Source: Ruegeria sp. 2205SS24-7
GTDB lineage: Bacteria; Pseudomonadota; Alphaproteobacteria; Rhodobacterales; Rhodobacteraceae
NCBI RefSeq assembly: GCF_030758345.1
Contig: NZ_JAVAMO010000007.1
Coordinates: 137,127-201,126, forward strand
Length of the DNA: 64,000 nt
Reading direction: 5' to 3'
The notes under the pieces were generated by a model. It made no database searches, was not told where the DNA came from, and worked only from the letters and a program-made list of their open reading frames with translations. Below are positions 11,301 to 36,400 of this stretch, piece after piece (within the stretch, counting starts at the first letter, position 1; every line of letters begins with the position of its first letter). Made by a program: the position numbers and the translations under genes.

Positions 11301-12013
11301 TTAAATCTCAGCGAGAATCGGCAGCATTGCCTAAAACCCCTGCGCGAATCGCCTCAGACAGCAAGCCAAACCGGACCAGCAGGAATGAAGCTCCTATACC
11401 GTTGATAACAAAGGTGATTTATGGGATCGCGCCGCCCAAACCCTATACTCATCCAGTTTCTGGTCAAAAGACGTGTATTTGGGCCACCTGCTTTGAAAAG
11501 GATGTCATGGGAAGCCTTTGCCGCATCGAAACGATTGGCGGTTATCGTTGGTTCACGCAAAGTTTCACGCAGAATGCCCAGTGCAGCAGCGCGACCGATC
11601 AGGGAAATGAGCGGCATCGAATCGGAGCGGAGGCGAATCCAACAACATTCCTTACACGTGGATTGCGTAGCAATGCGCGAGGTTGCCGACCGAAGAAAAT
11701 GACATCGCCGCGAGTGAACACCAAACGGAAAAGTCACCCGAGTTTCCGCTGTGCAGCTATTCTGTGCAAGCGGTCGCTACCGCCATCAACCCATACAGAA
11801 GGTTGATACTTCTTCATTAAATTCCGGCAACTTTAAGTTGACAGATCATGGGTTTGCTAATCTTCTCAACATAACAGCAGGTTTCAAGCAAAGTCTCTAC
11901 CGTAAGTTATATCCGCCGCGACCGATTTAACGACTGCCTGAGGTTTGAGACACAAATGCGCATGTTGGAATGGCCGGCTGAAAGACGCTTTGTTTGCGAG
12001 GGGAGGGCTGGTC
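11301..12013. promoter_or_regulatory. Divergent intergenic control region between the PPTase/TEII genes (minus) and PKS gene 1 (plus). It contains a lower-GC tract, a candidate TTGACA -35 element near 11838 and a GGAGGG RBS 8 nt before the ATG at 12014.
   Basis: ~710 bp with no convincing ORF. The ORFs here in the supplied track have no recognisable domains. There is an AT-richer stretch at 11800-11940, and the sequence aagTTGACAgatc is present. The GAGGGGAGGG purine tract lies immediately upstream of ATG 12014. Confidence 0.4.
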
Positions 12014-18000: not shown

Positions 18001-18478
18001 AAGACTGTCCGAACTCGTTGCCACCCAGACTGCGACAGGCGACGTGCGGCCTGCCCCGCCGCAGCAAGCCTCTGCGGGGACAGGCCGGACACAGTTGAAA
18101 CGCATCGCCGCCCTGCCAGCAGTTGAACGGCCACAAGCGCTGATGGCTGAGATCGCCGCCATCATCGAAGCAGTGGATCAGACACCGGCAGATCTGCTCG
18201 ACCCCGACGCCAGCGTGCAGGATCTGGGGATCAGTTCGCTGACCCTTGTGGAATTGCGCAAGGCAATCGAGGCGCGCTTTGCCTGTCCCGTTCCGGTCAC
18301 CAGCTTCTTCGAGTTCCCCACGATCCGCAGCTTCGCCGGACATCTTGTCGAGATGCTGAACTTTGGGGACGAAGCAGCCGAAAACCAGCCAGAAGCGTCC
18401 AAACCGACCATGAAGGCGGGCGAAACGCACCTCACCGCGCGCGACGCGCTGCGCAGCAAACTGGAGAAGTATCGATGA
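12014..18478 (+). CDS. Loading/extension PKS with domain order FAAL (fatty acyl-AMP ligase) - ACP - KS - AT - KR - ACP.
   Basis: FAAL motifs: FIQFSSGSTGEPKGVVLTHRRV and YPGYGLAEATLAV. ACP1: LVDQGFNSARAMAL. KS: IAGLGCRFPGG, DTACSSALVAVHLA, HGTGTPLGDPIE, GHLEAAAG. AT: FVFTGQGSQWAGMG, GHSVGEIAAHYASG, YAFHG. KR Rossmann: YLISGGTGGVGLALAEQ. ACP2: LGISSLTLVELRK. No DH or ER motifs. The start is set at ATG 12014, which has a good RBS, rather than the longest-ORF start at 11945. The stop overlaps the gene 2 start (ATGA at 18475-18478). Confidence 0.9.
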   Translation: MTDSVQLQNKLLECDLRQLLQQADPDRGVHYGMQGDAYQSYAQLAESAEQIALGLLAEGVTEGDQVVVMIGPPQRFLESFWGCVLAGAQPVPLQPGATDEAALKVLHVAQVLVAPWLISETGLAGPFDKVARYHGLDEVLLSLRAKQMSYQALVDSPADAILRIKLNAVGLDADSTAFIQFSSGSTGEPKGVVLTHRRVVAHLADLGASCEATRDDVFLSWFPLTHDMGMVLMHLLPLALGANQVQIETKSFVQRPRRWLTRASELKATVLCTNNFGLKHFLKLTGGKAPLTDDLSQVRLMFNAAEPISAELWETFMDLIAGTHLPRAAMYPGYGLAEATLAVTVPVPGDGLRTFSASRAALGPGDTLLPPSSPQDAVQLVDVGRAVENTSLRIAGWDDGDLGENRVGEIQLQSRSAAQSYLNAPRASLYTADGWLKTGDLGVLRDGRLFITGRIKEMITLGGENFYPHDIERVAETVPGVELGKVVATSVFDLASQAEQLLIFLYSRRIDAELAGLTRAVQQALAALGGWKVDRVIPIGAVPKTSSGKIRRGHLGQQYLAGAYDDSVASLEQLQRAAARRLSGGRRTRTRQVLRVLQASAAEVLGRSDLDIRKPLVDQGFNSARAMALVVDAGQTLGRDIPVAFLYDYPTLLSLAEAISLATPEQTSTRAVAVQPKITIAGLGCRFPGGIATPEAFRTFLSEGRSAIGPLPDTRAPRGLPRHKRPVAAFLDEIDGFDPELFGISWAEAKAMDPQQRLLLEVCWEALERAGLSGAKRRAHEIGVFVGIGPGEYGLGHETTPNQHSYTGTAPAIAAGRIAYALGLRGPAMVVDTACSSALVAVHLAVQSLIAGECDTAIAAGVNLILGPDGHAKLEAVSALSPTGQCRAFDDEADGYVRGEGCGAVVLRLADQLCDGEPSVAMITGTALNQDGRSGGLTVPSGPAQGALINHALARAGLAPADIAYIETHGTGTPLGDPIEANALTRVFGPSRSAGKPLLIGSAKTNLGHLEAAAGMVGLIKAALCVQSGTLPASLNHRVPNHRIDWTNKTLEVVTKPRSWPETAAPRRAGVSAFGLSGTNAHVIVEQAERQAITDAEPEEVGPLPVLTFSAADPQALRTRAGQLTDYLETHPDLDLTQFCSALAHNQADLTHLAAGAVSDIAEAETALRALAEDRPGPIKTGRKRGDALHQIAFVFTGQGSQWAGMGVDLLERSALFASEIERIDALLLPLTGWTVRDTLTSPDAANLLRRTDRAQAAIFAVQAALVRMLEELGLTPDAVIGHSVGEIAAHYASGVLSLEESVRLVAHRGKLMQAATGRGRMLAVPLGEEAIAPHLAAVEGLDLAAVNSPDQVVLSGDQPCIDTMTARLKNRNIPGTDLGVDYAFHGRHVQSEAKALAEQLGTLSPLPPLASLYSTVTGTLHRSEDVNAAYWAQNIGGTVRFAEAMQALLADGCTDIVEIGPHPALSSAITACIDAAGGGASSFASVPTLRRNMSGARAVADTLASLTCRGLAPNWTRLSDEPTVLTDLPTYPWQHKRFWLDGYDPWAALTDGSAMDQGALYTTAIRPLTMPLAEKKLPPLTLTHGEGDEQAAVLACALAELVATERNCRIVALTGPADGALEGDGWFVHLTGTVSPDRTSQALADLATAIQASLPHPGSRLWCVTFDPMPDKASPDALEAFSRVAAREHPELNIVRARLAGQADLAGLAALLRSDMSDFDADELRLEGPGFFTERIAPVEEAKPARTWMLRGDASYLISGGTGGVGLALAEQMLDAGAGQVVLTGRAAPGEAVRTAMQRLNAEQRRLEAVAVDASDRAGMSDLIRQLRDGALPLRGVVHAAAVLRDGTIHSMTSDLIAEVAAPKVAGGWVLHDLTRDIPLDYFICLSSIATLIGSPGQGAYAAANGGLDALARFRAAQELPSLSLQLGPVADLGMMAEGEATRRDPAALGLGTLQPDLLLGGVEQAWETGLPVVALAEFDPAKWTEYLPDPGNRARLSELVATQTATGDVRPAPPQQASAGTGRTQLKRIAALPAVERPQALMAEIAAIIEAVDQTPADLLDPDASVQDLGISSLTLVELRKAIEARFACPVPVTSFFEFPTIRSFAGHLVEMLNFGDEAAENQPEASKPTMKAGETHLTARDALRSKLEKYR

Positions 18479-21400
18479 GCGCCCCACCCACGCCATCATA
18501 TGACGACCGCGACCTTGAAGAGGCCATCAAGGTGATCACGCTTCTCGAGGAACGGCTCGAAGAGGCGCAATCGCGTGGGGATGAACCTATCGCAATCATC
18601 GGTATGGGGTGCCGGTTCCCCGGCGGTGCAAACAATCCCGATGCTTTCTGGGACATTCTCAATCAGGGCTTTGATACGTCCTGCAACATACCACCGGATC
18701 GTTGGAACATCGCGGGTCCGCATGAAGCGTTTTTTGCAACCATACGCGGCCATTTTTTGGACGCCCGCCCGGACGGGTTCGACGCGAGCCTCTTTGGTCT
18801 GGCACCTGCGGAACTTGCCGCGATGGACCCGCAACAGAGGCTGTTGCTGGAGGTTGCATGGGAGGCTTTCGAGGATGCCGGTCTGTCGATTGACGCCCTA
18901 GCCGGGTCCAGAACCGCCGTTTTTGTGGGCATCGAGAAATCGGACTATGAGCGCGCCAGCCTGTTTTCCGACGATCTGAACCAGATCACACCGCATACGG
19001 CAACGGGCGTCGCCCAGTCGAACGCGGCGGGGCGGATCGCCTACAACTTTGATCTGCGGGGACCGGTCGGGGTTGTGGACGCGGCTTGTGCCTCGTCACT
19101 GCTGGCTCTTGATCAGGCGTGTCAGAAGCTGTCTCAGGGCTCCGCCGATCTGGCGCTTGCCGGCGGCGTCAGCCTCATGCTTGGCCCCGAGACATTTGCC
19201 GCGCTTTCCAAGCTCGGCGCGCTGGCGCCGGATGGGCGCTGCAAGACCTTCGATGCCGAAGCCAACGGTTATGGCCGAGGCGAGGGATGCGGCGTTCTGG
19301 TGCTCAAGCGGCTTTCGGATGCGCAACGGGATAGTGACCGCATACAGGCCGTTATCCATGGCGTTGCCGTTGGGCATGGTGGCCGGGGTAACGGGCTGAC
19401 CGCCCCGAATGTCAGATCGCAGGCGGATGTGATACGGGCTGCACTCGCGAGCGCGAAAAAGACCCCGTGCGAGGTTGACTATCTGGAGGCGCACGGGACG
19501 GGCACTCAACTGGGTGACCCTATTGAAATTGCCGCGATCACCGAAGTATTCGGCCCGGCTCGGCCTGCGGATCGGCCTCTCTTGGTCGGATCGGCCAAAT
19601 CGAATATCGGCCATCTGGAAGCTGCCGCCGGAATGGCGGGCCTTGTCAAACTGGCCCTTGCCTATCGCCATGGGGAGTTGCCGCCAAACTGCAATATCAA
19701 TACCCCAAACACACTGATCGACTGGGAGACCGCACCGGTTGAACTCGTGACCCGGTCTCGGGACTGGAAACCCTGCAGCAACGAGAGCGGGGCAAGCGCG
19801 CCCAGACTGGCGGGCATCAGTTCCTTCGGTTTTAGCGGCACGGTGGCCCATGCCATCATCGGCCCACCCCCGAAGGCGGCAGCTCAGCCGAAACCGTCGA
19901 CCGAAAGACCGGTGCAAATTCTCGCCCTGTCGGGCCAACGGACCGAAGCGCTTGCCGCGGTGGCCGGGCGCTTTTCAGAAGCGTTGGGCCTGCCCGGCAG
20001 CGACCTGCCAACTGTCTGCGCGAATGCCAACGTAACGCGCAAGCATCACGCCCTGAGGGCGGCGCTGATCAGCGATACCTCGCAGGACATGAAAACCTTA
20101 CTGAAAGATCCTCTGACACCGCAGGCCGGACGTGTGATCTTGGGGCGCGCAAACCCCAACGAACCGGCACGCGCCGCCTTCGTCTTCTCCGGGCAGGGCG
20201 GTCTGCGAAGCGGCGTCGGGCGCGATCTCTATGGCACGGTCCCGGCCTTCACGGACATGATCGACGCCTGCGGCAAGACGCTTGACCCTCTGCTTGGGCG
20301 GCACCTGCATGAGTTGCTTTTTGACGAGAATACCGAGCAGACCGCTTTCGACGATCCGCAAGTCGCGCAGCCCGCTCTCTTTGCGTTGCAGGTGGCCCTG
20401 GTGGCGATGTGGCGCAACTGGGGCGTGGTGCCGTCAGTGGTTTTCGGCCACAGCTTCGGGCATTTCGCCGCCGCTCATACCGCCGGGGTGCTGTCGCTCG
20501 GCGCCGCGCTGGACCTTGTGATCGCGCGAGGGCAATTGGCGCAAAGCAATGCAGTGGAAGGACGCATGGCGGCCTGTTTCACCTCCGCCGCCGAGGTCGA
20601 AGCGACCGCGCGCGCGACAGGCGTCGAAGCAATCATTGCTGCCTACAACGCGCCCGAAAATTCCACCGTCTCCGCCACGCCCGACGCGATGGAACAGCTG
20701 ACATCCGCGTTGATCGCGCGGGGCGTCACGGTCAAGCCTCTGCCCATCCGCCGGGCCTTTCACAGCCATCACATGCAACCGATGGCCGAAAGGTTCGAAA
20801 AGCGTGTCGCGGCAGCGCAGCTTCAAGCACCCAAGATCCCGCTGATCCTTGACCTGACCGGCCGATTAGTCACTGGCGATGAATTGACCGACCCGTCAGT
20901 CTGGACGCTGCAACTGCTGGAACCGGTTCAATGCATGAAAGCGCTTGAGACGTTGCGCGCGCGCGGATGCACGGCGGCGCTGGAGATCGGCGCATCCGCG
21001 GTCATGTCCAGCCTGGGAGAGGAGAACGCGGACCCCGATGACAAGATGGCGTGGCTGCCCAGCCTGCGCCGCTCGACCAGCGGATGGCAACAGGCGCTTG
21101 CGACTCTTGGCGAGTTGCATGTGCGCGGCGTGCCGGTCGATTGGCGGCGCTTCCATTCCGAGGATGCGGCGCCGAGGATCAAGCTACCCACCTACCCGTT
21201 TCAGCGTAAGGCTTACCGCCTGCCGATGAAGCTGCCGGATCAGATGCGCCCGGATGAGCCGTCAGATCGACAATGGACTCCGGTGCGGGACTGGCTATTG
21301 AAGGGCGCCCCCCCGGCAAAGCAAGTCGCCGACGATCTCGCGGCGGCGGGACGCTTCGGGCGGCGGCATCTGGCCGCTTTCGCCCATGCGATCGGCCTGT

Positions 21401-24400
21401 TCGATCTGGCGCAGCTCGGCAGGACAGAGACCGAGTTGCTCGCGATGCTCGACATTCTGCCCGCCCATGAGCGCCTGATGCGGTGGTATGTTGATCTGCT
21501 GCTCGAAGATGGCTGGCTCGGCGCGACGGGTGACATGCTCCGCTCAACGCAACGGGCGCACAACACGGATTTCGCCGCATGGGCGGCCGAAACCCGAGCG
21601 GAAGAGAAGCGGCTGCAAGAACATCACCCCGATATGAGTGCCGCTTTCGAACTGCTGCGCCGGTGTTTCGAGGCGCTGCCCGACATTCTGAGCGGTGCGC
21701 GCGACCCGATGGAAGTGCTGATGCCGGGCGGTTCCGCCGAATTGCTTGGGGGGATTTACGGTCAGGGGCGGTTATCCCAATCCTTCAACTCGGTCATGGC
21801 GATGGCGGTTCCGGCTGCCGCTGAGGGCATTTCTGCACCTCGAATTTTGGAAATCGGCGGCGGCACAGGCGGTGTCACTCAAGGCATTCTCGACAGTTTC
21901 GCCCGGGAAAAGCGGGATGTTTCTTATACCTTCACGGACATAAGCGACGGCTTTGTCCGGCCCGCACGGGCACGTTGGGCCAACACATACCCAGCAATGG
22001 AATTTGCGACACTCGATGCCACGCTGGCGCCCTCAGCCCAGGGGTTCGAGGCCGCAAGCCAGGATGCGGTTGTAGCGTCAAACGTGTTGCACGCCACCCG
22101 GGACATGCAGGAAACGCTGCGCAACGCGGCAGAGCTCTTACGGCCCGGTGGAAAGCTCATCATCAACGAAGTCACACGGCTGCATGACGTGGTCGGCATG
22201 ATCTTCGGCCTGACACCGGGCTGGTGGCAATACGAAGATGATGCGCTGCGCATCTCGCATTCGCCGGTATTGAGCGTATCGGGTTGGCGAAAGGCACTGG
22301 ACGCCGCGGGCTTTACCGTCGAAGAGGTCCTTACCCTATCCGGAGACGATCCGGATCGCGCCCTTCAATCCGTGATCGTCGCGCGCCTTGTCTCAATGCC
22401 CGCACGCCTCGCCACAACGGCCCCCGCCGTGGCGGTCTCATCCGCACCAATCGCTGCCCCGGAACCCGCTTCGGACCATATTCCGGCCATGTGTGATCTG
22501 GTGAAAGAGATCAGCGGTATCGAACTGGCCCAACATGACCTCGATAGCGACCTCTTCGCGCTGGGTCTCGATTCCCTGCTGCTCATGCAATTGCGCAACG
22601 CGATCCAGAAACGGTTTGGCGCGAACCTGAAGATGAGCAGTTTCCACGATGAGATGTCCTCCGTCAGACGGATCGCGGATTATCTTTCTGAGCTGGCGCC
22701 ACCGCCCGAACCACCTGCAGCGCCGAGCCCCGCTCCGACATCAGCACCAGCCGTCACGCAATCCCCGCCCATACCTCAAGCTCATGAGAAACATACAGCG
22801 CCTGCGCAGGTGAAGTCCGCGCTGGAGGAGATCGTACAGCAGCAGTTGAAACTGATGTCGGATCAGATCGCCCTTTTGTCGGGACAGCAGAGCGGATTGC
22901 CAGCACCGCAGCCAGACGCCACCGCGACGCCGGTACCGGAAACGCCGACAGTACCACCGCCCAAACCTGCAACTCTCCCCGCCGCGCACCAGCAGGCACC
23001 GACTGCTGATCTGACAAAACGGCAACAGGAATTCCTGCAAGACCTGATCAGGCGCTATAACGCGCATACCGCCGCGTCCAAGGCTTATGCGTCCAAGGCC
23101 CGTCCGCAGCTCGCCGACTGGATCGCGACCATCGGATTCAGCCCCGAACTCAAGGAGTTAATCTATCCGATTGTTACGGCGAAATCAGAAGGCAGCCGCC
23201 TCTGGGATATCGACGGCAATGCCTATATCGATCTGGCCTGCGGGTTTGGCGTTGGGTTGCTGGGACATCAGCCCGCCTTCATCACCGACGCCATCCGGGC
23301 ACAGCTTGACGAGGGCATGGAACTCGCGACGCAAAGCGATCTGGCGGCTGAAACCGCGTCGCTGCTTTGCGAGTTGACGGGGTGCGAGCGCGTCGCCTTC
23401 AGCAATACCGGCACCGAAGCCGTGATGACTGCCTTTCGGCTGGCGCGCGCGGTCACAGGCAAGCCCAAGATTGCCATTTTCAAAGGGTCCTTCCACGGTT
23501 CCTACGATGGTGCGATGGCCTTTGGCAGCCCGCTTGGCACCATGTCTGCCTCGCTCGGCGTTCTCCAGAACCAGATTGAAGACGTGATCGTGCTCGACTA
23601 CGGCACGGATGCCGCACTTGATGCAATCGCTGCCGAGGCTGACCAGCTGGCCGGCGTGCTGGTCGAACCGGTGCAGAGTAGAAACCCCGATCTGCAACCG
23701 CGAGACTTCCTGCACAGATTGCGACAGATCACCGAAGACCGAGATATCGCGCTTGTTTTTGATGAGCTGATCACCGGTTTCAGATGTCATCCCGGCGGCG
23801 CACAGGCGCATTTCGGGGTCACCGCCGATATCGTGACCTACGGCAAGGTCCTGGGTGGCGGGCTGCCGATCAGTGCCATCGCGGGCAAGGCGCGTTTCAT
23901 CGATCCGATGGACGGCGGCGCCTGGCGCTATGGCGACAGCAGCGGGCCGACGGCGACGCAGATCTTCTTTGGCGGGACGTTCTGCCGTCATCCCTTGGCG
24001 ATGGCGAGCGCACATGCCACGCTCACCCATCTGAAGGAGCAGGGCCCCGCGCTACAGGAGCGCCTGAGCGCCCGGACCCGGGCAATGACGGACCGTTTGA
24101 ACGCGATGTTCGCCCGTCTTGGCATACCTTTCCGTATTGCCGGCTTCGCATCGCAATTCCAGGTGCGCCAGGTGACCCCGCAGGGAGAACTTTACCAGAC
24201 GCTCCCGCTCTCGCTCTTCTTCTTCTCACTGATGTTGCGCGGCATTTATTCGTGGGAGCGCCGAACCTGCTTCCTGTCCACCGCCCATTCGGATGCCGAT
24301 ATCAGTACCATCGAAGACGCTATGGAGGCGGCCGCCAAGGACCTTCTGCTTGGGGGCTTTTTCGGCGGTGACGACGGCGGTGGAAAGACCATTGAACTGG

Positions 24401-27400
24401 AGAGCCCGCAGCCGACCCACCTGCCCCTGACTGCCACGCAACGCGAAATGCGGCTGATGGCGCTCAAGCAACGGGGCGGCGATCGGGCCGAAATGCTTGT
24501 GGGGGAAGTGGCCGGACCGATCGACTCGGACAGGCTGCAGATCGCGTGCAATCGCCTCGTCGAACGGCACGACGTATTGCGCGCGCAAACGATAGACGGT
24601 GATGCGCTGATACTCGGCAGCCAAGGTCCCTGCCTGAGTGCAAACGCGCTGTCTGATCTTGATCACGACTTGCAGGATGGCGACGGAACCGCCTGGATCG
24701 CGGAACTCGCCGGAACGCGGATCGATCCTCAACGGGACCCGCTGCTGGCGTTCGACCTGCTCGATCTCGAAAACGGTCGCGCGCTCGTAGCCTTGCGGGC
24801 TCATCCGCTCATCTGTGACGGTTGGTCCATGGGGGTCATGATCACGGAACTGGCCGCGCTCTATTCGGGCGGCGCGGATCACACGCTAGAACCATCGACC
24901 TCTTTCGGTGATTTTGCAGATTGGGCCGCAAGCGCCAAACCAGACGAAGAGCGTGCAGCGCAGGGATACTGGCGGGAACGTCTGTCTCAAGGCATCGAAC
25001 CGATTGTTCTGCCGATCGACCGGCTGGCGCTTCGGCAAGGCGACAAGGCGGGGCGGCGTCTGCACCGGGTCATCGGCGGCAAGGCGGCAAAGGACGTGCT
25101 GGACCTCAGTGTCTCCCGAAACACCACGCCTTTCGTCGTTCTCCTTTCCGCCTATTCCGTTTTGCTGACACGGCTTTCCGGAGCATCGCGGCTCGCAATT
25201 GCGATCCCCGTCCCCGGTCAGGCCTCGATGGAAGCATCTCGGCTGGTTGGCCAATGCGCGGCCACTTTCCCTCTGGTGATGTCGGTCGATACCCAGGCAA
25301 CGGGCAACGCCCTGCTCGGCCAGGTGAAGCATGGCATCATGGCGATGCTGGATCACCAATGCGTCCGTCCACAGGATGCGATACAGGATGACACTTCCCC
25401 GCCGCCGCTTTCGGTCGGGTTCAATCTGGATCGCGACCCGGGGCAAATCCGGTTTGAGGGTCAGCCCGTCTCGATCCGGCCAGTGCCAATCGGTGACCCC
25501 AAATACGCGCTCAATCTCAATGTCATCACGACGGATGGGCAGTTCCTTCTGGATTTCGACTATGACGCCACGCGGTTGGATACTGGGACGGTGGCCGCCT
25601 GGGCCGACGCCTATTCATCCCTGCTAAGCGATCTGTGCGACAACCCGGAACGCCGCATAGATGACATTGGGCGGCGACCTGTGACCGAAACAGGGCCACT
25701 GCCGGATCTGCCCGCTGCCATGTCGGCGGCGCTCTCCAATGCGCCGGACAGGGTTCTTGCGACCGATGCAGACGGCCAACCCGTGACCGCAGGGTCAATT
25801 GCAACTCAGAACAGCGATGTCATTGCCGCGCTGGCGGACCGCCTGGGGATGCCGGTGCCCAAAGATACGCCGTCACGCGTTGAGGCCATCACCGCCTGGC
25901 AGAATGCCTGCGGGCTGGAGATCGGTGCAACGCTCACGCTGACCGCCGGATTGCCGGTGGTGGAGGCCTTGGCGGCGGCGGTTCTGGGAAAGCTGCACCT
26001 GCGCATCTCTGAGATGCCCGCGACTGGTCAGGCGATACTTCTCCCGCAAGATGCCGTGCGCGCCTGGATTCGCGAATGGGGGCGGCGCAAACCGGTCCGT
26101 TTGATCATCGAGTGCCGGAGTTCGCCTCTAGAGAGCTACCTGCCATCGCTCCAAGCCTCTCTCGCCGAAGGCAGCAGCGTCCAACTGATCCTTCGGCCTC
26201 ATACTGACAGGCAAGCTGCTGGTTATGCTGCGGCCTCCGTTGTGAGCGACATGAGACTGGTGCGCTTTGCGCCGCTGGACGGGCTGGCACTTTCGGTGCT
26301 GAACGACGATGGACAGCCCACGCTCGTGGGTTGCCGAGGTTCCTTGCACGCGGATGACGCGGCACTCGGCGTCACCGCGTCTTTGACCGCGAGTGGAGAG
26401 GTTGTGGCCTTAGCGGAGCCGCTCGAGAGCGCGGATGCTCGTGCGCTGCTGCTCTCCAATCCCGAGGTCGCCCAGGCCGAAGGCCCGTTGGACCGCCTAG
26501 TGGTCACAACGATTCCCGAGGCAATTGTTACGGCTCAGGAACTGGCTGCTGATCTTGCCCGCATGCTGCCGGGACCTTCGCTGCCGCGAAACATATCTCT
26601 TCACCGAGACGGTGCGCGCCACGATAGTTGGCAGGAGAAGTCGTATGAAGGTCCAACCGCCGGAGCATATCTTGAGACTATTCTCGATGTCTTTCGAGAT
26701 CATCTTGACCAGCCGAACCTATCAGCGCAGGACAGCTTCTTCGACTTCGGCGGAACAAGCCTGACCGCGCTGCGCGTCGCTGCCCAGATCGAACGCCGCA
26801 CCGGCCAGCAACTGGACGCCGCGTCCCTGTTCCGTGCACCTACGCCCGCAGGGATAGCCGAAAACCTGGGTGCAGAGTCCTACCCAATTCCAGCAACCGG
26901 CCTCCTGCGCGCACCCGCCTCTCCGGCCCAAAAACGTATGTGGACGCTGTCGCAGGTCGAGGGGCAGGAGGCGTTCTATGTCCTCTCCGGAGCATTCGTC
27001 TTTGACGGGTTGCTTGATCGGGATGCCTTGCAGGCTGCCCTGAACGCTCTTTTTGAACGCCATGGCATTTTGCGCACAGGCTACGATCTGAGCGACGGCG
27101 CCCTTTGGCAAATTATCCGCCCGTCAAAGGCCGTGGAACTGTCCGAACACATGGCCGAAGACGGAGAAGCCGCGCTGGCCCGGCATGTTCAGGAGCTGAC
27201 CGCTGCTCCGTTTGACCTGAGCGCAGGTCGGGTCTTTCGCACCGCATTGCTGTGCATCGACGCTTCGGCGAAATCGCACCATGCGCTGGTTTATGCCGTG
27301 CATCACATCGCCTTTGACGGCTGGTCCGAGGCAGCGCTGATCGCCGACCTGACCGAGCTGTATCAAGCCGCGCTTGGACACCGCGCCGCCGATCTGCCCG

Positions 27401-30400
27401 AACTGAAGCTGCAACATATCGACGCCTGCCTCTGGCAGGACGCGCGCCTGCACGGGCCGGACGGCAGGGCGGCGCTGGATCGCTGGGCCGCGCGTCTGAA
27501 AGACCTGCCGCAGCCGACCGCCCTGCCCCACGACCGCCCGCGCTCAAACCTGCAGAGCTTTGCCGCCGCCCGCTGCGATCTCCGCCTTTCGCGGTCCACG
27601 ACAGCGGGTCTGCGCGATCTGGCGCGGCAGGCGGGAACAACACCCTATCTTGCTGCGCTCGCCGGGCTGAAAGCACTGATCCACCGCTATACAGGGTCGA
27701 ACGATATCACCTTCGGCACGGCACTCACACGCAGGGGGCATCCGGACCTGCTGGGGCAGATCGGGAACTTCGTGAACACCCTGCCTCTCAGGGATCGCCT
27801 GAGCGGTTCGGACAGTTTCCGCACTCTGCTCTGGCGCGTGGCTGACACCGCCGCTGACGCATTTGCGGACGGAGATACGCCCCTTGACGCAATCCTCAAC
27901 CGGATCGGCCAGCCGCGCGACGTGGCACGCGCCCCACTGTTCGATATCCTGGTCAGCGCCGCCGATATCGAGCGGCCTGAGCTTGTCCTCGGGGGCGTGG
28001 CGGGCAGAGCGGTCGATGACCTGATCCCACCTGCGTCGGGTTTCGATCTCTATGTCGAGATCAGTACGGACAAAGAGTGCGCGCTTTTGCGTGTCACTTA
28101 TAATTCCGACCTGTTCGACGAAGACCGTATTGCCCGAATGGGGCGGCATCTGGAAACCCTGCTTGCGGCCTGTATCCGGGACCCCTCGAAACCGATTGCC
28201 CTGATCCCCCTTCTCGACGCGTCGGAAAACGCCGAGGTCACGGCCTATTCGCAATCCCACAAGCCGGAACTCTATGTGTTCGATGACCGGATGGCACTCT
28301 GCCCGGTGGGTATCGAGGGCACGATCTTCGAGACCTGCGCCCGGGACCTGCCGGGTGCCATACCCCATGCGCTTTCGCCATCCGGCTGGCTGCGGGATAC
28401 TGGGCAGCGCGCACAATGGACAACGACCGGACGGCTTGCCTATGCTGAGGTGACCAAGGAGCCGACCCCGGTCACTCCGGCTATGTCGTCGGACGAGACG
28501 ACGAAAACACTGCTGGAAATGTGGCGTCGCTTTCTGCCCTCCGGCGCCGCGCCGACAACCGATGACAGCTTCTTTGCGCTTGGCGGCAATTCTCTTGGCG
28601 CAGTTCAAATCGTTGCACAGGTGCGGGACACCTTCGGTGTGGACCTGCGCGTGAAGGACCTGTTCGAGCGGCCGAGTGTTGGCGCGTTTCAAGGTTTTCT
28701 GGGCACCCTCGCGAAACCGGGCGAACTGACCGGAGAAGCCGAAGAAGACACCTCTGTAACGCTTGCCCCAGCGCAGGAGCGGATGTGGCTGCTGGACAAT
28801 GTGGCGGCTGACAAGTCGGCCTATTGCATGTCGGGCGCCTTCTGGATTGGTGGTCGCCTGGACATGGACCGTTTGCGGCAGGCCCTTCGTGCAGTCGCGC
28901 AACGGCACGAGGCCCTGCGCAGCTTCTTTTCCGAGGCTGACGATGGCACGCCGCATATCAGCATCGCTGCGCAAGTCGAGCCAGCCCTGACGGTCGAGAC
29001 GGCACCGGACGAGGCAACAGCTCTGGCGCGCGCTGCAGAGATGAGCGGGCAAGGTTTCGATATGTCCAGAGCGCCGCTCTGGCGCGTGCACTTCACGCAG
29101 GCCGGAGCCCGCACCCTGCTGACCATCAGCCTGCATCATGCCATCGCCGACGGCTGGTCGGTCGCCCTCTTCCTGCGCGATCTGACCAAGGCCTATCAGG
29201 GCGAGGCTTTGCCTGCCGCCAGCGGCGCTTACCGGGAGCATGCACGGCGCAGCCGGCTCCTGCTCGACAGTCCAGCGGGCGCGGAAAGCCGCGGCTACTG
29301 GCAAGAGACGCTCAGGGACGCACCGCAAGAGATCGCGCTTTTCACTGATCGGCCAAGACCGAGCGTCAAATCCTATCGCGGCGGCGTGGTTCATTCGGAA
29401 CTTGACGCCACAACCGCGCAGGCGCTTCGCGCTCTGGCGACGGCGCAGCGCGGAACGCTTTATCAGGTGTTGATGGCGCTCAGCGCAACGCTGCTGCACC
29501 GCCATTCCGGGCAGAGCGATCTGGTGATCGGTAGCGTCGCCGCTGGCCGCCACAGCACCGAAGAATTCGACCAGATCGGCTGTTTCATCGAAAACTTCGC
29601 GCTGCGCCTCGATCTCGACCCCGAGACAACGTTCGAGACTCTCCTAGCCCAGACTGTCAAAAGGCTGACGGAGGCGCAGGAGCATAGCCGTTATCCGGTG
29701 GAACTGCTCGGCCAGTCGCGCGGGGGCACCGGCCGTGGCGGCAGACTGGGCCTGTTCAACATCATTGTCACGGTCGAGGAATTCACCGACGAGGCCCTGT
29801 CCTTTGACGGGCATCCGGCGCGCACCGCGCAACTGCCCAGCGTGATCTCGCGTGCGGATCTGATCTTCTACCTGCGCCCGTCGGCGAAGGGGATTGCCAT
29901 AGAGATCGAATATGACGCCGATCTGTTCGATGCCGAAACCATCGAACGCATGGCTGAGCATCTCGGTCATTTGGCCGTGGCTGCGGCCAATGCGCCAACC
30001 GACAAGCTCTCCACGCTTCCCCTGATCGGCGCAGAGGAACGCGAAGCGGTCGTCAGCGGATTTAACCAAACCGCCACCGACTACCCGCGAAACAGAAATG
30101 TCGTCGATCTGTTCAGAGAGGTCGCGCAAAACTCGCCGGACGCCATCGCCCTGCGTCACCACACAAACAGCGTGACATACCGGGAGGTCGATCTCTGGTC
30201 CGACCGCATCGCCGCGGGTCTTGTCACACACCATGGCGTCAAGCCCGGCGATCTGGTGGCTTTGATGTCCGATCGTCAGCCTGCCCTGATCGCCGCGATG
30301 CTCGGGGTGCTGAAGGCCGGAGGTACTTATGTACCGATTGACGCCGATTACCCGGCAGAGCGCATTGCAACCCTGCTCGACATTGCCAAACCAAAACTTA

Positions 30401-33400
30401 CGTTGGGCGGCGCGGGCGACGCTCGACCGAGCGACGCGGTGAAACTCGACGCGGTCGAGGTCGATCCCGACGGTGTTGCGCTGCCGGAAGTCGGGCCGGA
30501 GGCACCGGCTTATGTGATGTTCACCTCGGGCTCTACCGGGACACCAAAAGGTGTGGTCGTGCCGCATCGCGCCATCGTCCGGCTTGTGCGCAATAGCGAT
30601 GTTGCCCCGCTCGGTGCGTCGGACACGCTGCTGCTGACGGGCGCGCTGTCCTTCGACGCGACCACCTATGAGATCTGGGGGCCGCTGCTGAACGGGGGCC
30701 GTCTTTTGCTGGCGGATCGGGAAACACTGCTCGACCCCTGGAGCATGGCCGAGGTCACGCGGCAGGAAAAGGTCACAGTGATATGGCTGACCGCCACGCT
30801 GTTCAATCAGTTCGCCGATCTCAATCCGACGGTCTTCGAGGGTCTGCACACCGTTCTGACCGGCGGCGAACGGATTTCCGCTCGCCATGTCGCGACCGCG
30901 ATGACGGCGAACCCCTCACTTGTGGTCGTGAACGGCTATGGCCCGACCGAGAACACGACCTTCTCAGCAACGCATCGGATCGAGACCCCGCCTGAACCCG
31001 GTTCAGATGTCCCGATCGGGCGACCGATTGCCAACAGCACGATCCTGATCCTCGACCCGGCAGGGGCACCCGCGCCGGTTGGATTGCCCGGCGAAATCTG
31101 CGTCGGCGGTGACGGTCTCGCGCTTGGTTATCTCGACCGGGATGATCTGACGGCGGAACGCTTCTCGACGCACCCAGATTTCGGGCGCCTCTATCGAACT
31201 GGCGATCTGGGATTGTGGATGCCGGATGGCACCGTGCGCTATCTCGGACGTGGCGACGATCAGCTTAAAATCCGCGGGAACCGGATCGAACCCGGCGAGA
31301 TCGCAGCCGTTCTGGAGGCGCTGGACGGCGTGCGGCAGGCCGCCGTCATTGCCCGCCCCGGACCGGCGGGGCCGGAATTGGCGGCTTATGTGGTGACCGA
31401 CCCGCATCCGGACATGGCCCGGCTCAGGAAAACCCTTGCAGAACGTTTGCCCGAGGCGATGGTGCCCGCCCATCTGATCGCACTCGACGCCTTGCCGGTT
31501 GACGCCAACGGCAAGCTGGACCGCCGCGCCCTGCCGGACCCTGCCGATATCGCGCCCTCACCCACCGCCGGCCGCGCACCTGCCAACCGGATCGAGACCG
31601 AAATCGCCGAGGAATGGTCAACACTACTGGGTGCTGCGGTTTGTGATGTGGACGCTGACTTTTTCGCCCTTGGCGGCCACAGCCTGCTTGCGGTCCGCCT
31701 GATCAACCGGCTTCAGGCCCGCTACGGGCCTGTGGCGACCCTGCGCGACCTGTTCGAGCAACCGACCGTATCCGGCCTTGCCAGATGCGTGATCGACGGT
31801 CTGGCGGGCGGCACGAAACCCGCGCCAGCCCTGCTGCCGCTGCTGCCCGCCTCGGACGGCTACGCGGCCTCTGCGCAGCAACAGCGCCTCTGCTTCCTGC
31901 AAAAGCTTGACGGGCCGGGTCCCAACTACACCGTGATCGGCGGCTACTGGCTGGACGGAAGCCTTGACGAGGCAGCCCTTGAAACGGCGCTCGCAACCGT
32001 CTCCGCCCGCCACGAAGCGTTGCGCACCCGGTTCCAGAGCACTCGTGGCAAGATACGCCAATGCATCGACGCTGAGGCCACGCTTCGGCTGGAGCGACAT
32101 GATCTGAGCGATGAAGACAACCCGACCAAGGCGGCAAAGCGTTTGGCGCGAAACATAGCTGCCGCACCCTGGGATCTGGCAAACGGCCCCCTCGCGCGCG
32201 CTGTCCTGATCAGGACAGCGCGCGACCGCGCGCTTTTTCTGCTCTCTCTGCACCACGCGATCTGTGACGGCTGGTCGATGGAGGTTCTGACGCGGGAGGT
32301 CACGACGGCCTATCTCATGGCCCGTTCCGGCGACGTTCCCGACCTTCCCGGTCTACCCTGCCAGCCAAAGGACATCGCAGCTTGGCAGACACAACGCCTT
32401 GCCGGGCCGGAGGGGAAGGCCGATCTTGCCTATTGGACCCGGAAACTGGACGGTCTGCCGCCGCCGCTGGACCTCCATGGTGGCCGGGCGAGCGACCTCG
32501 ATCCGGCAGGTACGCTGGCGCATCGGTCGGTGGTGCGGCTTGATGCCCACAGAGCCGGTCTGGAGGCATTGGGAACTGCGCGGAAGGTCAGCCTCTTCAC
32601 CGTTCTTGCTGCCCTGACCGCAGCCGCGCTCCATCGGTTGAGCGGGCAGACCGACCTGTGGCTGGGCACACCGGTCGCAGGACGGAACCGCCCCGAATTT
32701 GAGGATCAGGTCGGCTACCTGTCTGACATGGTTGTTCTGCGCAGCGCGATCGATCCTCAGGACGCCGTCGCCGGTTTTGTCGGGCAAACCGGCGAGGCGG
32801 TCGCCGCGGCGCTCAGCCATCAGGACATTCCGCTCGATGCCGTTGTACGCGCCCTCGGCCACGGCCCCGACCGCCCACTGTTCAATGCGATTGTCGCGTT
32901 GGAGGATATCCCGGCACTGCCGGAGCTTCCCGAGTTGACGCTGACACCATTCGATACGGGGCCAACCGGGCCGAAGACCGGTCTGAGTTTCACCTATCTC
33001 CAAGAGGCGGACGGAACGCTTTCCCTGCAGCTAGACGCCGATCCGGCGCAATTCACCGCTGAGCGCACCGAGCAGCTCGCCAGGACGGTCGAATGTCTGA
33101 TCGCGTCCGCGATATGCGCGCCCGAAAAAACCCCCCTCGCTCAGCTGCGCCTGACCAGCCCCGACGAGAGAACCCGGCTTCTGGAGTCGTTTGGCCGTTG
33201 CTCCGACATATCGGCAACGCCCGCGACGACCGTGCTCGAAAGTTTCGCCACACAAGCCGCCAGCGATGGGGATGCCGCTGCGGTGACCGGGCCAGATGCC
33301 ACCCTTACCTATGGTGAATTGGATATGGCGTCCAACGCCATCGCGCACGCGTTGCGCGACACTTTTGGTATAACGACGGGGGCGCGGGTCGGGCTGGCCC

Positions 33401-36400
33401 TGCCCCGCGATACCCGCCTGATCGCCGCGATGCTTGGCATTCTGAAGGCGGGCGCGGCTTATGTCCCGGTCGATCCATCCGCGCCGGTCGAACGGGTTGC
33501 AGGGATGCTTGCCGATGCAGAATGCGCCGCGCTGATCACCGATGCGACCGCACCCGGCGGGCGGTGGGGGCTTGCCGACCGCACGCTCGTGCTGGACGAT
33601 CTCTCTGCCCGCGCCGCGACGCCTCCGAATGCTCAGCTAAGGCCCGACGACCTCGCCTATGTGATCTTCACCTCGGGCTCCACGGGGCGGCCCAAGGGCG
33701 TCATGATCGAACACCGGTCGGTCGCGGCGCTCGTCGCGGCGTTGCATCAGACGGTCTATGACGGATTGGAAGGCCAGCAGACCGTCGCGCTGGTCGCACC
33801 GCATATCTTCGACGCGTCGGTTCAGCAGATCTTCGCCGCGCTCTGCGGTGGGCACCGGCTCTTGGTGGTCGATGCCGAAACGCGCCGCGATGGGCGCGAT
33901 CTGATGGATCTTTTTGCACGCGAAGCGGTGACTGTCTCGGACGCGACGCCAAGCCTGCTGTCCCTGCTGCGCAATTTCGGTTTTGCGCGCCGCAACGACC
34001 TGTGCTTGCGCCATATCCTTGTTGGCGGCGAGGCGCTTGCGACGGGGCTTGCCCGCGATATCCTCGAAGCGCCCACCTGCCCGATGCTCAAGCTGACCAA
34101 TGTCTATGGTCCGACCGAAGCCACCGTTGACTGCACCGCGCTGACGCTTGCACACGCCGATCTGTCGGATGACGCGGTTGCAAGTATTGGCAGGCCGCTG
34201 GGTCAGGCGCAGTTGCTCGTGCTTGACTCATATGGTGAACCCGTCCCCGTCGGGACACAGGGTGAGATTCATGTCGGCGGACCCGGGCTGGCGCGCGGGT
34301 ATCTGGACCCGGCTCTGACGCGGGAACGGTTCGTGGAACATCCGGAATTCGACCGCCTCTACCGGACCGGTGATATGGGCCTTTGGGACGAGGATGCAAA
34401 GCTGCACTTCCTTGGGCGTCGCGACGATCAGGTCAAACTGCGCGGCTATCGCATCGAACTGGCCGAGGTCGAGTCCGGCCTGAGCAGGATCAAGGGTGTC
34501 CGCCACGCGGCCTGCATCCTGAGCGGTCAAGGCGAGACCGCACAGCTTCTGGGCTTTGCCCAATGCGCCACGCATGCACCAGCCGACCTGCGCCAGGCTG
34601 CAGCAGAGCATCTGCCGGACTATATGATACCTGCCGATATCATCCGGCTCGACGCTCTGCCGATGACGCCAAGCGGCAAGGTGGACCGTCTCGCTCTGGC
34701 GGCACTGGACCGGCCAAAAAGGCAACATGCCACCCATTCAACCGGCCCCGACACCGATCTCGAACATGCCGTCGCTCAAATCTGGGCGCGGGTCATGGAC
34801 CGCCCGATGGATGACATGCAGGCCGACTTCTTCGCCTGCGGCGGGCATAGCCTCGCCGCAGCGCAGTTGATCAATCTGGTGGAAGAGGCGTTTGCCGTCA
34901 CCGTTTCACTGCGCGCCTTCTTTGCCGAACCGACGCCCGCCGGGCTCTGCGCGCTGATCGAGGCCGCGCCGGATGCGCAGGCGGATCTACCGGCGCAGCA
35001 GGACGGAGACGGTCTGCTTTCACCGGCGCAGTACCGGCTCTGGGCCATCGACCAGATGCATGGGGACAGCGCGGGCTACGCCATGCCCGCCGCGTGGCGC
35101 GTCACCGGCGCATTCGATCCGGATGCCTTTGCGCGCGCAGCGGATATGCTGGTGTCCAGGCACGACGCCTTGCGCACGCGTTTCGAAATGCGCGCGGGCC
35201 GCCCCGTTCAGATCATCGATGCAGCAAGCCACGCAGATATAGCGATGGAGGAAATCGCGCCCTGCGACGACTCCATGGCCGAAGCGCTTGACCGATGCGC
35301 AAAAGAGGTTGCGTGCCCCTTCGATCTGGAAAACGGCCCATTGCTGCGCTTCCGCCTGTGGAGCATAGACGAACATAATCATGTTCTCTTCGTGAACGCG
35401 CATCATATCATCGTGGACGGCCAGTCGCTGGACATGATGGCGAGGGACCTCTGGTCAGCCTACGCATCAATCGCGGCAGGCAAGGCACCGGAACTGGGAC
35501 CCGACGCGCCCTCATTCCAGGACCATGTCGCAAAAATGCGCGCCCGGGCCGACGGGCCAAAAGCGCAATCGGACTTGCGCCGCTGGCAGGAGGTTCTGAC
35601 CCCCCTGCCCCCACCGCTTGATCTGCCGATGGACCAAACAAGGCCCCCGCTGCGCAGCCAGAGCGGCGCATCGCTCGATATCCCGGCGGCACAAAAAACG
35701 CAGGCCACTTTGGCTAAGGTCGCCAAAGCACAAGGCACAACGCCTTTTGCAGTGCTCACCGCTTTGAGCGCTTATGCAATGTATGCCCTCTCCGACCAGC
35801 AGGGCATGTTCATAGGGGTTCCGCTCTTGGGCCGCCCGGATCGGGACAGCCAGTCCGTCATTGGTCTTTGTACCGAGACCGTGCCATTGCGCGTCACGCT
35901 GGACCCGCATCAGACGTTCGGCGCGCTGCTCACACAGGTAAAGAGCAACCTTGCCGAGATGCTGGACCGTCGGGACTGCCCGTTCGACCGGATTGTCGAG
36001 GCGATCAAACCACCCAGCAGGCCGGACCGCTCGATCCTGTTCGACGTGATGGTCAGCTACCGCAGGACCGATCCCGAGGCCGCCCCTTGCGGGCTTGATC
36101 TGACGCCGTTGCCGTTGCCCGTGCAGGGCAGTCAGCTTGATCTGACATTGCTGTTCGCCGAAACGCCCGAGGCGCTGACGCTTTCGCTGCAATATGATGA
36201 TGCCCTGTTCGAGGCAGATCGTATTCGTGGCATCGGCAACTATGTCCTGTCGCTACTTGACCGGATCGCTGCGTTCATCGACCAGCCGATTGCAGCCCTG
36301 CCGCGGCCAGATGTGCGACTGCTGGCGGGACCGGTTGAGACAGCGCCAGCAGCCCTTGCGCCAAGCGGGTCTGCCCCCGGCTCCTGCGATAAGATGCTTG

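What the first reader, a model, noticed from the sequence alone, without database searches (positions are those of the whole stretch)
24799..24828. First condensation domain has HPxxxDG instead of HHxxxDG
C1 follows the aminotransferase and should form the first amide bond, beta-amino fatty acyl to residue 1. Its motif AHPLICDGWS lacks the second His, usually regarded as the catalytic or positioning residue. The downstream A domain of the same module is degenerate. Either the whole first module is a relic and the lipid initiates at a later C domain, or this C domain is a non-canonical variant specialised for the beta-amino acyl donor.
Basis: seen in the sequence. Interest (0 to 1): 0.55.

Follow-up and report, generated by a model that had tools for sequence, protein, structure and literature searches.

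The report
Conserved condensation domain lacking catalytic histidine
The first peptide-bond-forming domain of a large orphan lipopeptide synthetase from a marine Ruegeria really has His-Pro where almost all such domains have His-His; the change is ancient and conserved, and it is one of several lost active-site residues, so the domain is probably kept as a scaffold or relay and no longer acts as a normal catalyst.

Summary
Window 24799-24828 encodes AHPLICDGWS, in frame in a 7549-aa PKS/NRPS, and the condensation domain (C1) sits directly after a MycA-type aminotransferase (AMT).

It is not a sequencing error. CCG is two changes from a His codon. Two independent marine metagenome orthologs carry the same CAT CCG with synonymous changes around it, and a fourth lineage has His-Lys.

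It is not the normal state of AMT-coupled C domains. All 7 such domains found elsewhere keep HH. Pro at this position occurs in 0 of 236 and 0 of 714 comparison motifs.

C1 belongs to the AMT-coupled subtype by shared motif signatures. It has also lost the 97%-conserved Arg (now Gln) and the C5 Asn and Arg, and it has a rewritten C6 motif. The A domain behind it is a 320-aa remnant.

The module is not a dead relic. C1 has dN/dS 0.20-0.29, against 0.14-0.18 for C2. Carrier domain T1 keeps its serine and is as constrained as the ACP. Two other modules with normal HH C domains also lack A domains.

Best reading (about 0.4): a non-condensing C°-A° scaffold relays the beta-amino acyl chain to T1, and C2 makes the first amide bond. 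An HP C domain that is essential was already reported (MxgE, 2026).

Verdict: a new variant of a known kind, of moderate interest.

The parts
11945..18478 (+). ORF A: FAAL-ACP-KS-AT-KR-ACP, which activates the lipid and carries out the first extension. The domain order is read from the translation and motifs, and from the Pfam families listed for its 2179/2181-aa orthologs.
18475..41124 (+). ORF B (7549 aa): KS-AT-cMT-ACP-AMT-C1(HP)-A°-T1-C2-a°-T2-C3-A-T-C4-A-T-C5-T-C6-A-T-C7
23167..24108 (+). Aminotransferase (AMT) domain of the MycA type, which makes the beta-amino acyl-S-ACP
   Evidence: Pfam PF00202, E 6e-54; PDB 6kfm MycA AMT, E 8e-114
24415..25749 (+). C1: a condensation-fold domain of the AMT-coupled subtype that lacks the catalytic second His and other core residues
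   Evidence: Pfam PF00668, E 2.5e-41; AF2 pLDDT 79.8, pTM 0.80; Foldseek TM ~0.75 to Txo2, TycC5-6 and DhbF C domains; motif table
24799..24828 (+). C3 motif AHPLICDGWS; His2110-Pro2111 are codons CAT CCG at 24802-24807
25243..25278 (+). Degenerate C5 motif LVGQCAATFPLV (canonical IGxFVNTLxLR): Asn is replaced by Ala and the terminal Arg by Val. The Gly-x-Cys is shared with other AMT-coupled C domains.
25750..26709 (+). Remnant of the module-1 adenylation domain (320 aa). It has no A3, A7 or A8 cores and is still under purifying selection.
   Evidence: no Pfam or NCBIfam match; hhalign to real A domains over 110 columns only; dN/dS 0.28-0.30
26710..26934 (+). T1 carrier domain. The core FFDFGGTSLTALR includes Ser2762 (nt 26758-26760), which is conserved in all four lineages.
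   Evidence: Pfam PF00550; dN/dS 0.10-0.20
26962..28269 (+). C2: canonical HHIAFDGWS condensation domain, the candidate for the first real amide bond
28270..28764 (+). 90-aa remnant of the module-2 A domain, followed by T2 (FFALGGNSL)
35002..36624 (+). Module 5: C5 (HHIIVDGQS) followed directly by T5, with no A domain at all

Best explanation
C1 is a genuine, conserved domain that descends from the kind of condensation domain normally fused behind a polyketide aminotransferase (as in MycA-type enzymes). In this small family of marine proteobacterial megasynthases (Ruegeria sp. 2205SS24-7, two marine metagenome lineages, and a lower-GC lineage) it has lost its amide-bond-forming machinery:
- the second His is now Pro or Lys;
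- the Arg that pairs with the motif Asp is now Gln;
- the C5 Asn/His and the C5 Arg are gone;
- the C6 motif is rewritten.
The A domain behind it has decayed to a stump.

The C°-A° pair is kept as a folded platform in front of an intact carrier domain, T1.

The most likely mechanism is as follows. The 3-amino-2-methyl-5-hydroxy acyl chain made on the ACP is handed to the T1 phosphopantetheine thiol without any amino acid being added. This would be thiol-thioester exchange, with the two arms brought together in the C° tunnels. The canonical C2 then makes the first amide bond, to an amino acid loaded in trans onto T2.

Shown here: the motif, its conservation, the subtype assignment, the multiple residue losses, purifying but relaxed selection, the intact T1, and the other A-less modules.

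Inferred: that C1 no longer condenses, that the chain goes through T1, and that T2 and T5 are loaded by neighbouring A domains.
For: 1. The loss goes well beyond one residue. C1 carries residues seen in fewer than 1% of 236 comparison C domains at columns that are 94-98% conserved: P141 (His 98%), Q279 (Arg 97%), A293 (Asn 94%) and A273 (Gly 94%). It also has S285 (0.4%, where Glu is 84%) and V298 (where Arg/Lys is 88%).

2. The replacement at the His position is not a conserved functional group. It is Pro in three lineages and Lys in the fourth.

3. Constraint on the catalytic motifs is relaxed more than on the rest of the fold. The fraction of invariant motif columns is 0.40 in the C1 family and 0.66 in the C2 family. 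For non-motif columns the figures are 0.24 and 0.32. C1 is 55% and 34% identical to the two full-length orthologs, against 61-67% and 39-47% for the other six C domains. C1 has dN/dS 0.20-0.29, against 0.14-0.18 for C2.

4. The domain is nevertheless retained. dN/dS is far below 1 at dS about 1-2. The predicted fold is confident (pLDDT 79.8) and matches C domains. The ten residues of the motif are identical across three lineages, with synonymous changes in flanking codons.

5. T1 is functional by sequence. Its Ser is conserved in 4 of 4 lineages, and its dN/dS of 0.10-0.20 is like that of the ACP at 0.09-0.17.

6. The A1 remnant lacks its A3, A7 and A8 cores, and in one lineage it is about 110 aa shorter.

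7. C2 is fully canonical and highly conserved.

8. Module 1 is the only A-less module with no A-containing NRPS module next to it (architecture).
Against: - No biochemical or product data exist for this family.
- The second His is not indispensable in every C domain, according to review PMC11546977.
- An HP-type C domain (MxgE) is essential for production; H138A, P139A and D143A each abolish it (PMC13638107). Loss of His therefore does not prove loss of function.
- The first His, Asp, Gly, Trp and Ser of the motif are still invariant.
- Trans-loading must exist in this enzyme for T2 and T5, so T1 could be loaded too.
- Only four lineages were available.
- dS is near saturation, so the dN/dS values are approximate.
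- A C-fold domain mediating carrier-to-carrier thiol transfer has no precedent that I could check here.
Confidence: 0.4

Rival explanations
1. C1 is still the first condensation catalyst. T1 is loaded in trans with an amino acid (by A3 or another A domain). C1 joins the beta-amino acyl chain to it using a remodelled active site that does not need the second His.
For: C1 is under purifying selection. The first His, Asp, Gly, Trp and Ser are invariant, and there are family-specific invariant blocks: HQxVRPQD, GQC, LNLNV. T1 is intact. Trans-loading is needed elsewhere in the same protein, in modules 2 and 5. The His role is debated and its mutation does not always abolish activity. The MxgE HP C domain is essential.
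Against: The partner Arg, the C5 Asn/His and the C5 Arg have all been lost as well. Pro versus Lys at the key position shows no conserved chemistry. Motif columns are relaxed relative to C2. All seven other AMT-coupled C domains, which use the same kind of donor, keep HH.
Confidence: 0.3
2. Module 1 is skipped entirely. The ACP delivers the chain straight to C2, and C1, A° and T1 are evolutionary leftovers kept only because they sit in the middle of one reading frame.
For: Catalytic residues have been lost in C1 and A1. C1 and A° are the least conserved large domains of the protein. The A remnant has been shortened in one lineage.
Against: dN/dS of 0.2-0.3 at dS above 1 is not neutral decay. 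T1 keeps its Ser and is among the most constrained small domains. The motif AHPLICDGWS is 10/10 identical across three lineages despite synonymous turnover.
Confidence: 0.12
3. C1 has become a non-catalytic recruitment platform, like the glycopeptide X domain or the siderophore interface (I) domain. It would present the T1-bound chain to a trans-acting tailoring enzyme, for example the Cupin_8/JmjC oxygenase at 1916-2902.
For: It has a C fold without the second His, as X and I domains do. An oxygenase gene lies near the cluster. The X domain is among the structural neighbours, at TM 0.73.
Against: The Cupin_8 gene is absent from the orthologous contig, although DUF697, TEII, PPTase and the RND genes are conserved there. 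I domains are reported only at the start of a pathway or protein. The X domain is not among sequence matches at E <= 1e-3. C1 carries AMT-coupled subtype signatures.
Confidence: 0.1
4. Sequencing or assembly artefact at the Pro codon.
For: None found.
Against: CCG is two changes away from CAY. The identical CAT CCG occurs in two independent metagenome assemblies, and HP or HK occurs in every member of both protein clusters that was checked.
Confidence: 0.01

Closest known systems
MycA / iturin-type (and McyE-type) PKS-aminotransferase-NRPS junction. The architectures are recalled from the literature; only the MycA AMT was tested here.
   Same: A KS-AT-(cMT)-ACP-AMT unit is followed directly by a C domain. 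The AMT is a close homolog of the MycA AMT (E 8e-114). C1 shares motif signatures with AMT-adjacent C domains from cyanobacteria, Spirosoma and a Mycobacteriaceae MAG: DGWSMG, C5 Gly-x-Cys, FNLDR and L.LNV.
   Different: Here the C domain lacks the second His, the partner Arg, and the C5 Asn/His and Arg. The A domain of the module is a remnant. All seven comparison AMT-C junctions keep HH. The MycA, ItuA and PuwE C-domain sequences themselves could not be fetched.
MxgE N-terminal C domain of myxoglucamide biosynthesis (PMC13638107, 2026)
   Same: It has Pro in place of the second His of HHxxxDG and is an integral, required part of an NRPS/PKS line.
   Different: MxgE-C groups with dual C domains and is fused to an FMN monooxygenase at the end of the line. 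C1 is of the AMT-coupled subtype, sits inside a megasynthase, and is followed by a decayed A domain and a T domain.
Non-catalytic C-like domains: the glycopeptide X domain and the interface (I) domain
   Same: They have the condensation fold with the catalytic His lost, and they are retained under selection as part of the assembly line.
   Different: X domains sit in the last module and recruit P450s. I domains sit at the start of a protein and partner with beta-hydroxylases. No conserved partner gene was found here.
Module skipping or pass-through in assembly lines (myxochromide S; ACP-to-ACP transfer in PKS skipping), recalled from the literature and not tested
   Same: A module whose catalytic domains are inactive, while the chain still has to pass that position.
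   Different: In myxochromide S the skipped carrier is itself inactivated (recalled). Here T1 is intact and strongly conserved, which points to a relay and not a jump.
A-less C-T modules loaded in trans or by a neighbouring A domain (fungal siderophore synthetases, thalassospiramide, syringomycin SyrE), recalled from the literature
   Same: Modules 2 and 5 of this protein are C-T with canonical C domains and no A domain. Module 1 could be one more case.
   Different: Only module 1 combines the missing A domain with a degenerate C domain and has no A-containing neighbour.

Membership tests
NRPS condensation-domain superfamily (Pfam PF00668) | Sequence match to the family profile above the curated cut-off | tested here: met
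   142.3 bits against a cut-off of 30.6, E 2.5e-41
NRPS condensation-domain superfamily (Pfam PF00668) | Two-lobed chloramphenicol-acetyltransferase-like C fold | tested here: met
   AF2 pLDDT 79.8, pTM 0.80; Foldseek E 3e-33, TM 0.75 to the Txo2, TycC5-6 and DhbF C domains
Catalytically canonical C domain | HHxxxDG with the second His present | tested here: not met
   HPLICDG in the window, L077 and L078; HKLAADG in P0037
Catalytically canonical C domain | Conserved Arg before C5 (the partner of the motif Asp in VibH, recalled) and the C5 motif GxFVNTxxLR | tested here: not met
   Arg (97%) is replaced by Gln, Asn (94%) by Ala, and terminal Arg/Lys (88%) by Val
AMT-coupled ('hybrid') C-domain subtype | Position directly downstream of a PKS aminotransferase domain | tested here: met
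   The AMT ends at about aa 1878 and C1 starts at about aa 1981. Five fetched loci have the same arrangement, and two further megasynthases carry AMT-like motifs followed by an HH C domain.
AMT-coupled ('hybrid') C-domain subtype | Subtype-specific motif signatures | tested here: met
   DGWSMG, C5 G[YHQ]C, C7 FNLDR, strand L.LNV and PLT.AQ are shared with the L001, L002, L072, L019 and L037 AMT-adjacent C domains and are absent from the sibling C domains. C1 scores higher against these domains (111-140 bits) than against any sibling (53-100 bits).
AMT-coupled ('hybrid') C-domain subtype | Phylogenetic grouping with the subtype | tested here: inconclusive
   The NJ tree nests the C1 family among AMT-adjacent C domains, but bootstrap support is only 60% (sister to L019) and 20% (whole clade) on a long branch. 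NaPDoS/CDD reference sets were not available.
Starter C domain | Closest similarity to lipo-initiation (starter) C domains, at the N-terminus of the first NRPS | tested here: not met
   Starter structures (CDA-C1, SrfA, RzmA) score E 5e-10 to 6e-7, against 4e-24 to 1e-18 for elongation-type C domains. C1 is internal to the protein.
X domain / I domain (recruiting, non-catalytic C-like domains) | Characteristic position (last module before TE for X; start of protein for I) and a conserved trans-acting partner | tested here: not met
   C1 is internal and follows the AMT. The I subtype is reported only at the pathway start. The Cupin_8 gene is not conserved in ortholog contig L080.
MxgE-type HP C domain | Pro replacing the second His | tested here: met
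MxgE-type HP C domain | Dual-C clade membership and fusion to an FMN monooxygenase | tested here: not met
   No monooxygenase domain is present in ORF B, and C1 carries AMT-coupled signatures. Direct comparison with the MxgE sequence was not possible.

The most novel reading that the evidence does not exclude
The C°-A°-T1 unit is a dedicated relay station. In this reading a condensation-fold domain has been repurposed from amide-bond formation to carrier-to-carrier (ACP to T) thiol transfer of a beta-amino acyl chain, a reaction not assigned to any C-domain subtype so far. It might also hold the chain on T1 for trans tailoring before the first real condensation by C2.
Probability: 0.25. Interest if true: 0.7.

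Novelty: new variant of a known kind. Interest (0 to 1): 0.45.

Why it matters
Non-canonical condensation domains are currently used as beacons for new chemistry, and this is a clean natural case. A C domain of a defined subtype (AMT-coupled) has lost its catalytic residues in every known member of a family. It is still kept under selection in front of an intact carrier domain, at the PKS-to-NRPS hand-over.

If the chain is relayed without condensation, product predictions for this orphan Ruegeria lipopeptide change: nine residues plus a 3-amino-2-methyl-5-hydroxy fatty acid instead of ten. C-fold domains would then have a scaffold or transfer role that assembly-line engineers could exploit.

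If the domain still condenses, it is a natural experiment on how dispensable the second His, the partner Arg and the C5 Asn are.

Tried and rejected
1. Word-indexed protein searches with C1 and with the KS N-terminus returned only proteins shorter than 1000 aa and no ortholog. The index apparently does not return megasynthases, so the Roseibium marinum and ERZ27247797 orthologs implied by TEII hits could not be read at C1.

2. The genome-contig scan with C1 found nothing above 31% identity. It was useful only as a comparison set.

3. Exact look-ups of window ORF C and of the Roseibium TEII were not on record.

4. I considered that the invariant Cys in the C5 motif (GQC) might be a new nucleophile. 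I rejected this because the same Gly-x-Cys occurs in ordinary AMT-adjacent C domains that keep HH.

5. I considered the nearby Cupin_8/JmjC oxygenase as a recruited partner. This is weakened because the gene is missing from the orthologous contig.

6. Structure prediction and Foldseek confirmed the fold but cannot discriminate subtypes or activity.

7. A literature search for 'HPxxxDG' and for PDB entry 8XJZ gave nothing. The puwainaphycin paper gives no C-motif data. No paper on a Ruegeria beta-amino lipopeptide was found.

8. NCBIfam adds nothing for C1, the A remnant or the ORF C N-terminus.

Full report
**Observation**

Window 24799-24828 is GCT CAT CCG CTC ATC TGT GAC GGT TGG TCC, which translates to AHPLICDGWS. 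It lies in frame in the 7549-aa ORF 18475..41124.

Pfam and motif scans give the architecture of this ORF:

KS-AT-cMT-ACP-AMT-C1-[320 aa, no AMP-binding match]-T1-C2-[90 aa]-T2-C3-A-T-C4-A-T-C5-T-C6-A-T-C7

It is preceded by ORF A, which I read as FAAL-ACP-KS-AT-KR-ACP (Pfam families of its orthologs). It is followed by ORF C, which I read as [270 aa without a match]-A(MT)-T-E, and by ORF D, which I read as C-A-T-C-A-T-C-A-T-E-TE (E-type motifs). A type II thioesterase, a PPTase, a DUF697 gene and RND efflux genes lie upstream.

The AMT is a close homolog of the MycA aminotransferase structure (6kfm, E 8e-114). Profile-profile comparison recovers only about 110 residues of the A6-A10 region of that A domain, with A7 and A8 deleted (E 1e-4).

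**Is it real and unusual?**

All other C and E domains of the window have HH.
- Pro at this column occurs in 0 of 236 C-domain alignments from 76 unrelated loci, where His is 98%.
- HP and HK occur 0 times among 714 C3-type motifs in 148 large NRPS representatives.

CCG is two substitutions away from CAT/CAC.

An exhaustive profile search found two proteins with the same length and architecture.
- P0036 (7539 aa) has RAHPLICDGWS.
- P0037 (7437 aa, lower GC, ten near-identical members) has SAHKLAADGWS.

A metagenome scan returned the DNA of P0036 (L077, marine metagenome ORCZ01000068) and a further lineage (L078, Ga0056108). Both carry CAT CCG, with synonymous differences in the neighbouring codons.

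The loss of the second His is therefore ancient and conserved, and it is not an error. The window itself is from Ruegeria sp. 2205SS24-7, because its TEII is 100% identical to an NCBI protein of that strain. Contigs holding TEII orthologs show the same gene order.

**What kind of C domain is it?**

By sequence, the best solved relatives are elongation-type C domains (8xjz, Txo1/2, PvdL, TycC; E 4e-24 to 1e-18). Starter C domains score far lower.

C1 scores higher against C domains that follow an AMT in other organisms (111-140 bits) than against any of its ten siblings in the same cluster (27-100 bits; 53-100 for the nine C domains). The organisms are Scytonema, Desmonostoc, Anabaena, a Mycobacteriaceae MAG and Spirosoma.

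In a neighbour-joining tree the four C1 sequences are monophyletic (100% bootstrap). They nest among the AMT-adjacent domains, but with weak support (60% and 20%) on a long branch.

The motif table is more telling. C1 shares these signatures with AMT-adjacent domains and not with its siblings:
- DGWSMG
- the C5 Gly-x-Cys
- C7 FNLDR
- the strand L.LNV
- PLT.AQ

C1 is thus a member of the AMT-coupled subtype. All seven AMT-adjacent domains found outside this family keep HH. HP is therefore not the normal state of C domains that take a beta-amino acyl donor.

**How far does the degeneration go?**

It is not a single substitution. One search compares C1 with the 236 comparison C domains column by column:

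| Column | Usual residue (frequency) | C1 residue (frequency) |
|---|---|---|
| 141 | His (98%) | Pro (0%) |
| 273 | Gly (94%) | Ala (0.8%) |
| 279 | Arg (97%) | Gln (0.9%) |
| 285 | Glu (84%) | Ser (0.4%) |
| 293 | Asn (94%) | Ala (0.9%) |
| 298 | Arg/Lys (88%) | Val (6%) |

The C6 motif HQDYPF has become HQxVRPQD.

Constraint is also relaxed, and more so on the canonical motif columns than on the rest of the fold.
- Across the four lineages, 40% of motif columns are invariant in C1 against 66% in C2. For non-motif columns the figures are 24% against 32%.
- C1 is 55% and 34% identical to P0036 and P0037. The other six C domains are 61-67% and 39-47% identical.
- Nei-Gojobori dN/dS is 0.20-0.29 for C1, 0.14-0.18 for C2, 0.28-0.30 for the A remnant and 0.08-0.14 for the AMT. 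dS is about 1-2, so these values are approximate.

**But it is not a dead relic**

- dN/dS well below 1 at saturating dS means that C1 and the A remnant are kept as folded units.
- AlphaFold predicts a confident C fold (pLDDT 79.8, pTM 0.80) that matches solved C domains at TM about 0.75.
- T1 keeps its phosphopantetheine Ser in all four lineages (GGTS or GGAS). Its dN/dS of 0.10-0.20 is as low as that of the ACP.
- Modules 2 and 5 have fully canonical HH C domains yet also lack A domains: a 90-aa stump in module 2 and none in module 5. A missing A domain is a regular feature of this enzyme, so it is not evidence that module 1 is idle.

**Mechanism**

I favour the following model, at about 0.4. 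C1 and A1 no longer catalyse anything and form a structural platform. The beta-amino acyl chain is relayed from the ACP to the T1 thiol without incorporation of an amino acid. C2 then makes the first amide bond to a residue loaded in trans on T2.

This model accounts for:
- the multiple catalytic losses;
- the non-conserved replacement (Pro or Lys);
- the relaxed motif constraint;
- the retained fold;
- the intact T1;
- the decayed A1;
- the fact that module 1 is the only A-less module without an A-containing neighbour.

The main rival, at about 0.3, is that C1 still condenses with a remodelled site onto a trans-loaded T1. It draws on three points. The role of the second His is debated and its mutation does not always abolish activity (PMC11546977). 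An HP-type C domain, MxgE, is essential for myxoglucamide production (PMC13638107). The first His, Asp, Gly, Trp and Ser remain invariant.

The other rivals are weaker.
- Full bypass, about 0.12: this conflicts with the conservation of T1.
- A recruitment platform of the X or I type, about 0.1: the nearby Cupin_8 oxygenase is absent from the orthologous contig and the position is atypical.
- An artefact: excluded.

**Product prediction (inferred)**

Stachelhaus-type residues suggest the following:

| A domain | Code | Suggested substrate |
|---|---|---|
| A3 | DAY?LGGTFK | Val-like |
| A4 | DAQDLGVVDK | Gln |
| A6 | DILQLGVIWK | Gly |
| ORF C | DAS?LAAVCK | aromatic, N-methylated, then epimerised |
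| ORF D, first | DILQLGVIWK | Gly |
| ORF D, second | DVHSLGLVDK | unassigned |
| ORF D, third | DAATIAAVCK | aromatic, followed by E-TE |

The lipid should be a 3-amino-2-methyl-5-hydroxy fatty acid. ORF A contributes FAAL plus a KR-containing module, and ORF B contributes cMT plus AMT.

**Comparison and novelty**

- The junction works like the MycA/McyE type but fails the test of a functional C-A-T behind the AMT.
- The HP motif has one published precedent (MxgE, 2026), in a different clade and context.
- Non-catalytic C-like domains (X, I) and A-less or skipped modules are known kinds.
- What is new is the combination: a degenerate AMT-coupled C domain plus a decayed A domain in front of a conserved carrier, fixed in a family of orphan marine clusters.

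I rate it a new variant of a known kind, with interest about 0.45.

Noticed in passing
window 25750-26709, 28270-28539, 35002-36624: Three of the seven NRPS modules in ORF B lack a working A domain, at three stages of decay: a 320-aa remnant (module 1), a 90-aa remnant (module 2) and none (module 5, C5 directly followed by T5). All three T domains keep their Ser. No stand-alone A domain is present in the window.
   Followed up: partly
window 41131-41940: The first ~270 aa of ORF C, upstream of its A domain, match nothing in Pfam or NCBIfam and nothing in the other NRPS proteins of the window by phmmer. This may be a decayed half of a C domain or a docking region.
   Followed up: partly
window 43201-44300 (inside ORF C): The ORF C adenylation domain is interrupted between A8 and A10 by a methyltransferase-like insert (weak Methyltransf_25/11 hits). 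It is followed by T and an E-type domain (HHIAVDWVSW), which predicts an N-methyl-D-aromatic residue.
   Followed up: no
window 27-1310: An ORF with a weak reverse-transcriptase match lies at the edge of the window: Pfam RVT_1 at 33.5 bits, and the group II intron RT/maturase model at 58.9 bits, far below its cut-off of 300. There are also faint Drt2, retron and Drt3a hits.
   Followed up: partly
window 1916-4386 versus L080: The Cupin_8/JmjC oxygenase and the outer-membrane factor gene next to the RND pump are not present in the orthologous marine-metagenome contig. There, COXG, TetR and CO-dehydrogenase-like genes follow AcrB. These two genes are therefore probably not conserved parts of the cluster.
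   Followed up: yes
P0037 (ortholog), aa ~1978-2718: In the lower-GC lineage, C1 is further degraded: the C2 motif is RHEGLCC instead of RHxxLRT, and the C4 motif has been lost. The A remnant is about 110 aa shorter. T1 and C2 remain intact.
   Followed up: partly
L037 9263-10483 (Spirosoma flavum): An AMT-adjacent C domain that keeps HH (THHSTRDGWS) but has Gln instead of the 97%-conserved Arg before C5. C1 has the same change, so this substitution alone is compatible with an otherwise canonical motif.
   Followed up: no
window 18475-18478 and 45980-46008: The ORF A stop overlaps the ORF B start (ATGA), and ORF C and ORF D overlap by 29 nt. This suggests translational coupling of the megasynthase genes.
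   Followed up: no
L013, L021 (Blastocatellia / Acidobacteriota MAGs): Several C-like domains in these loci have neither His of the motif (for example SLPALCADATAL and TLPSLCADPATL). This is a different non-canonical C-like class seen among the comparison loci.
   Followed up: no
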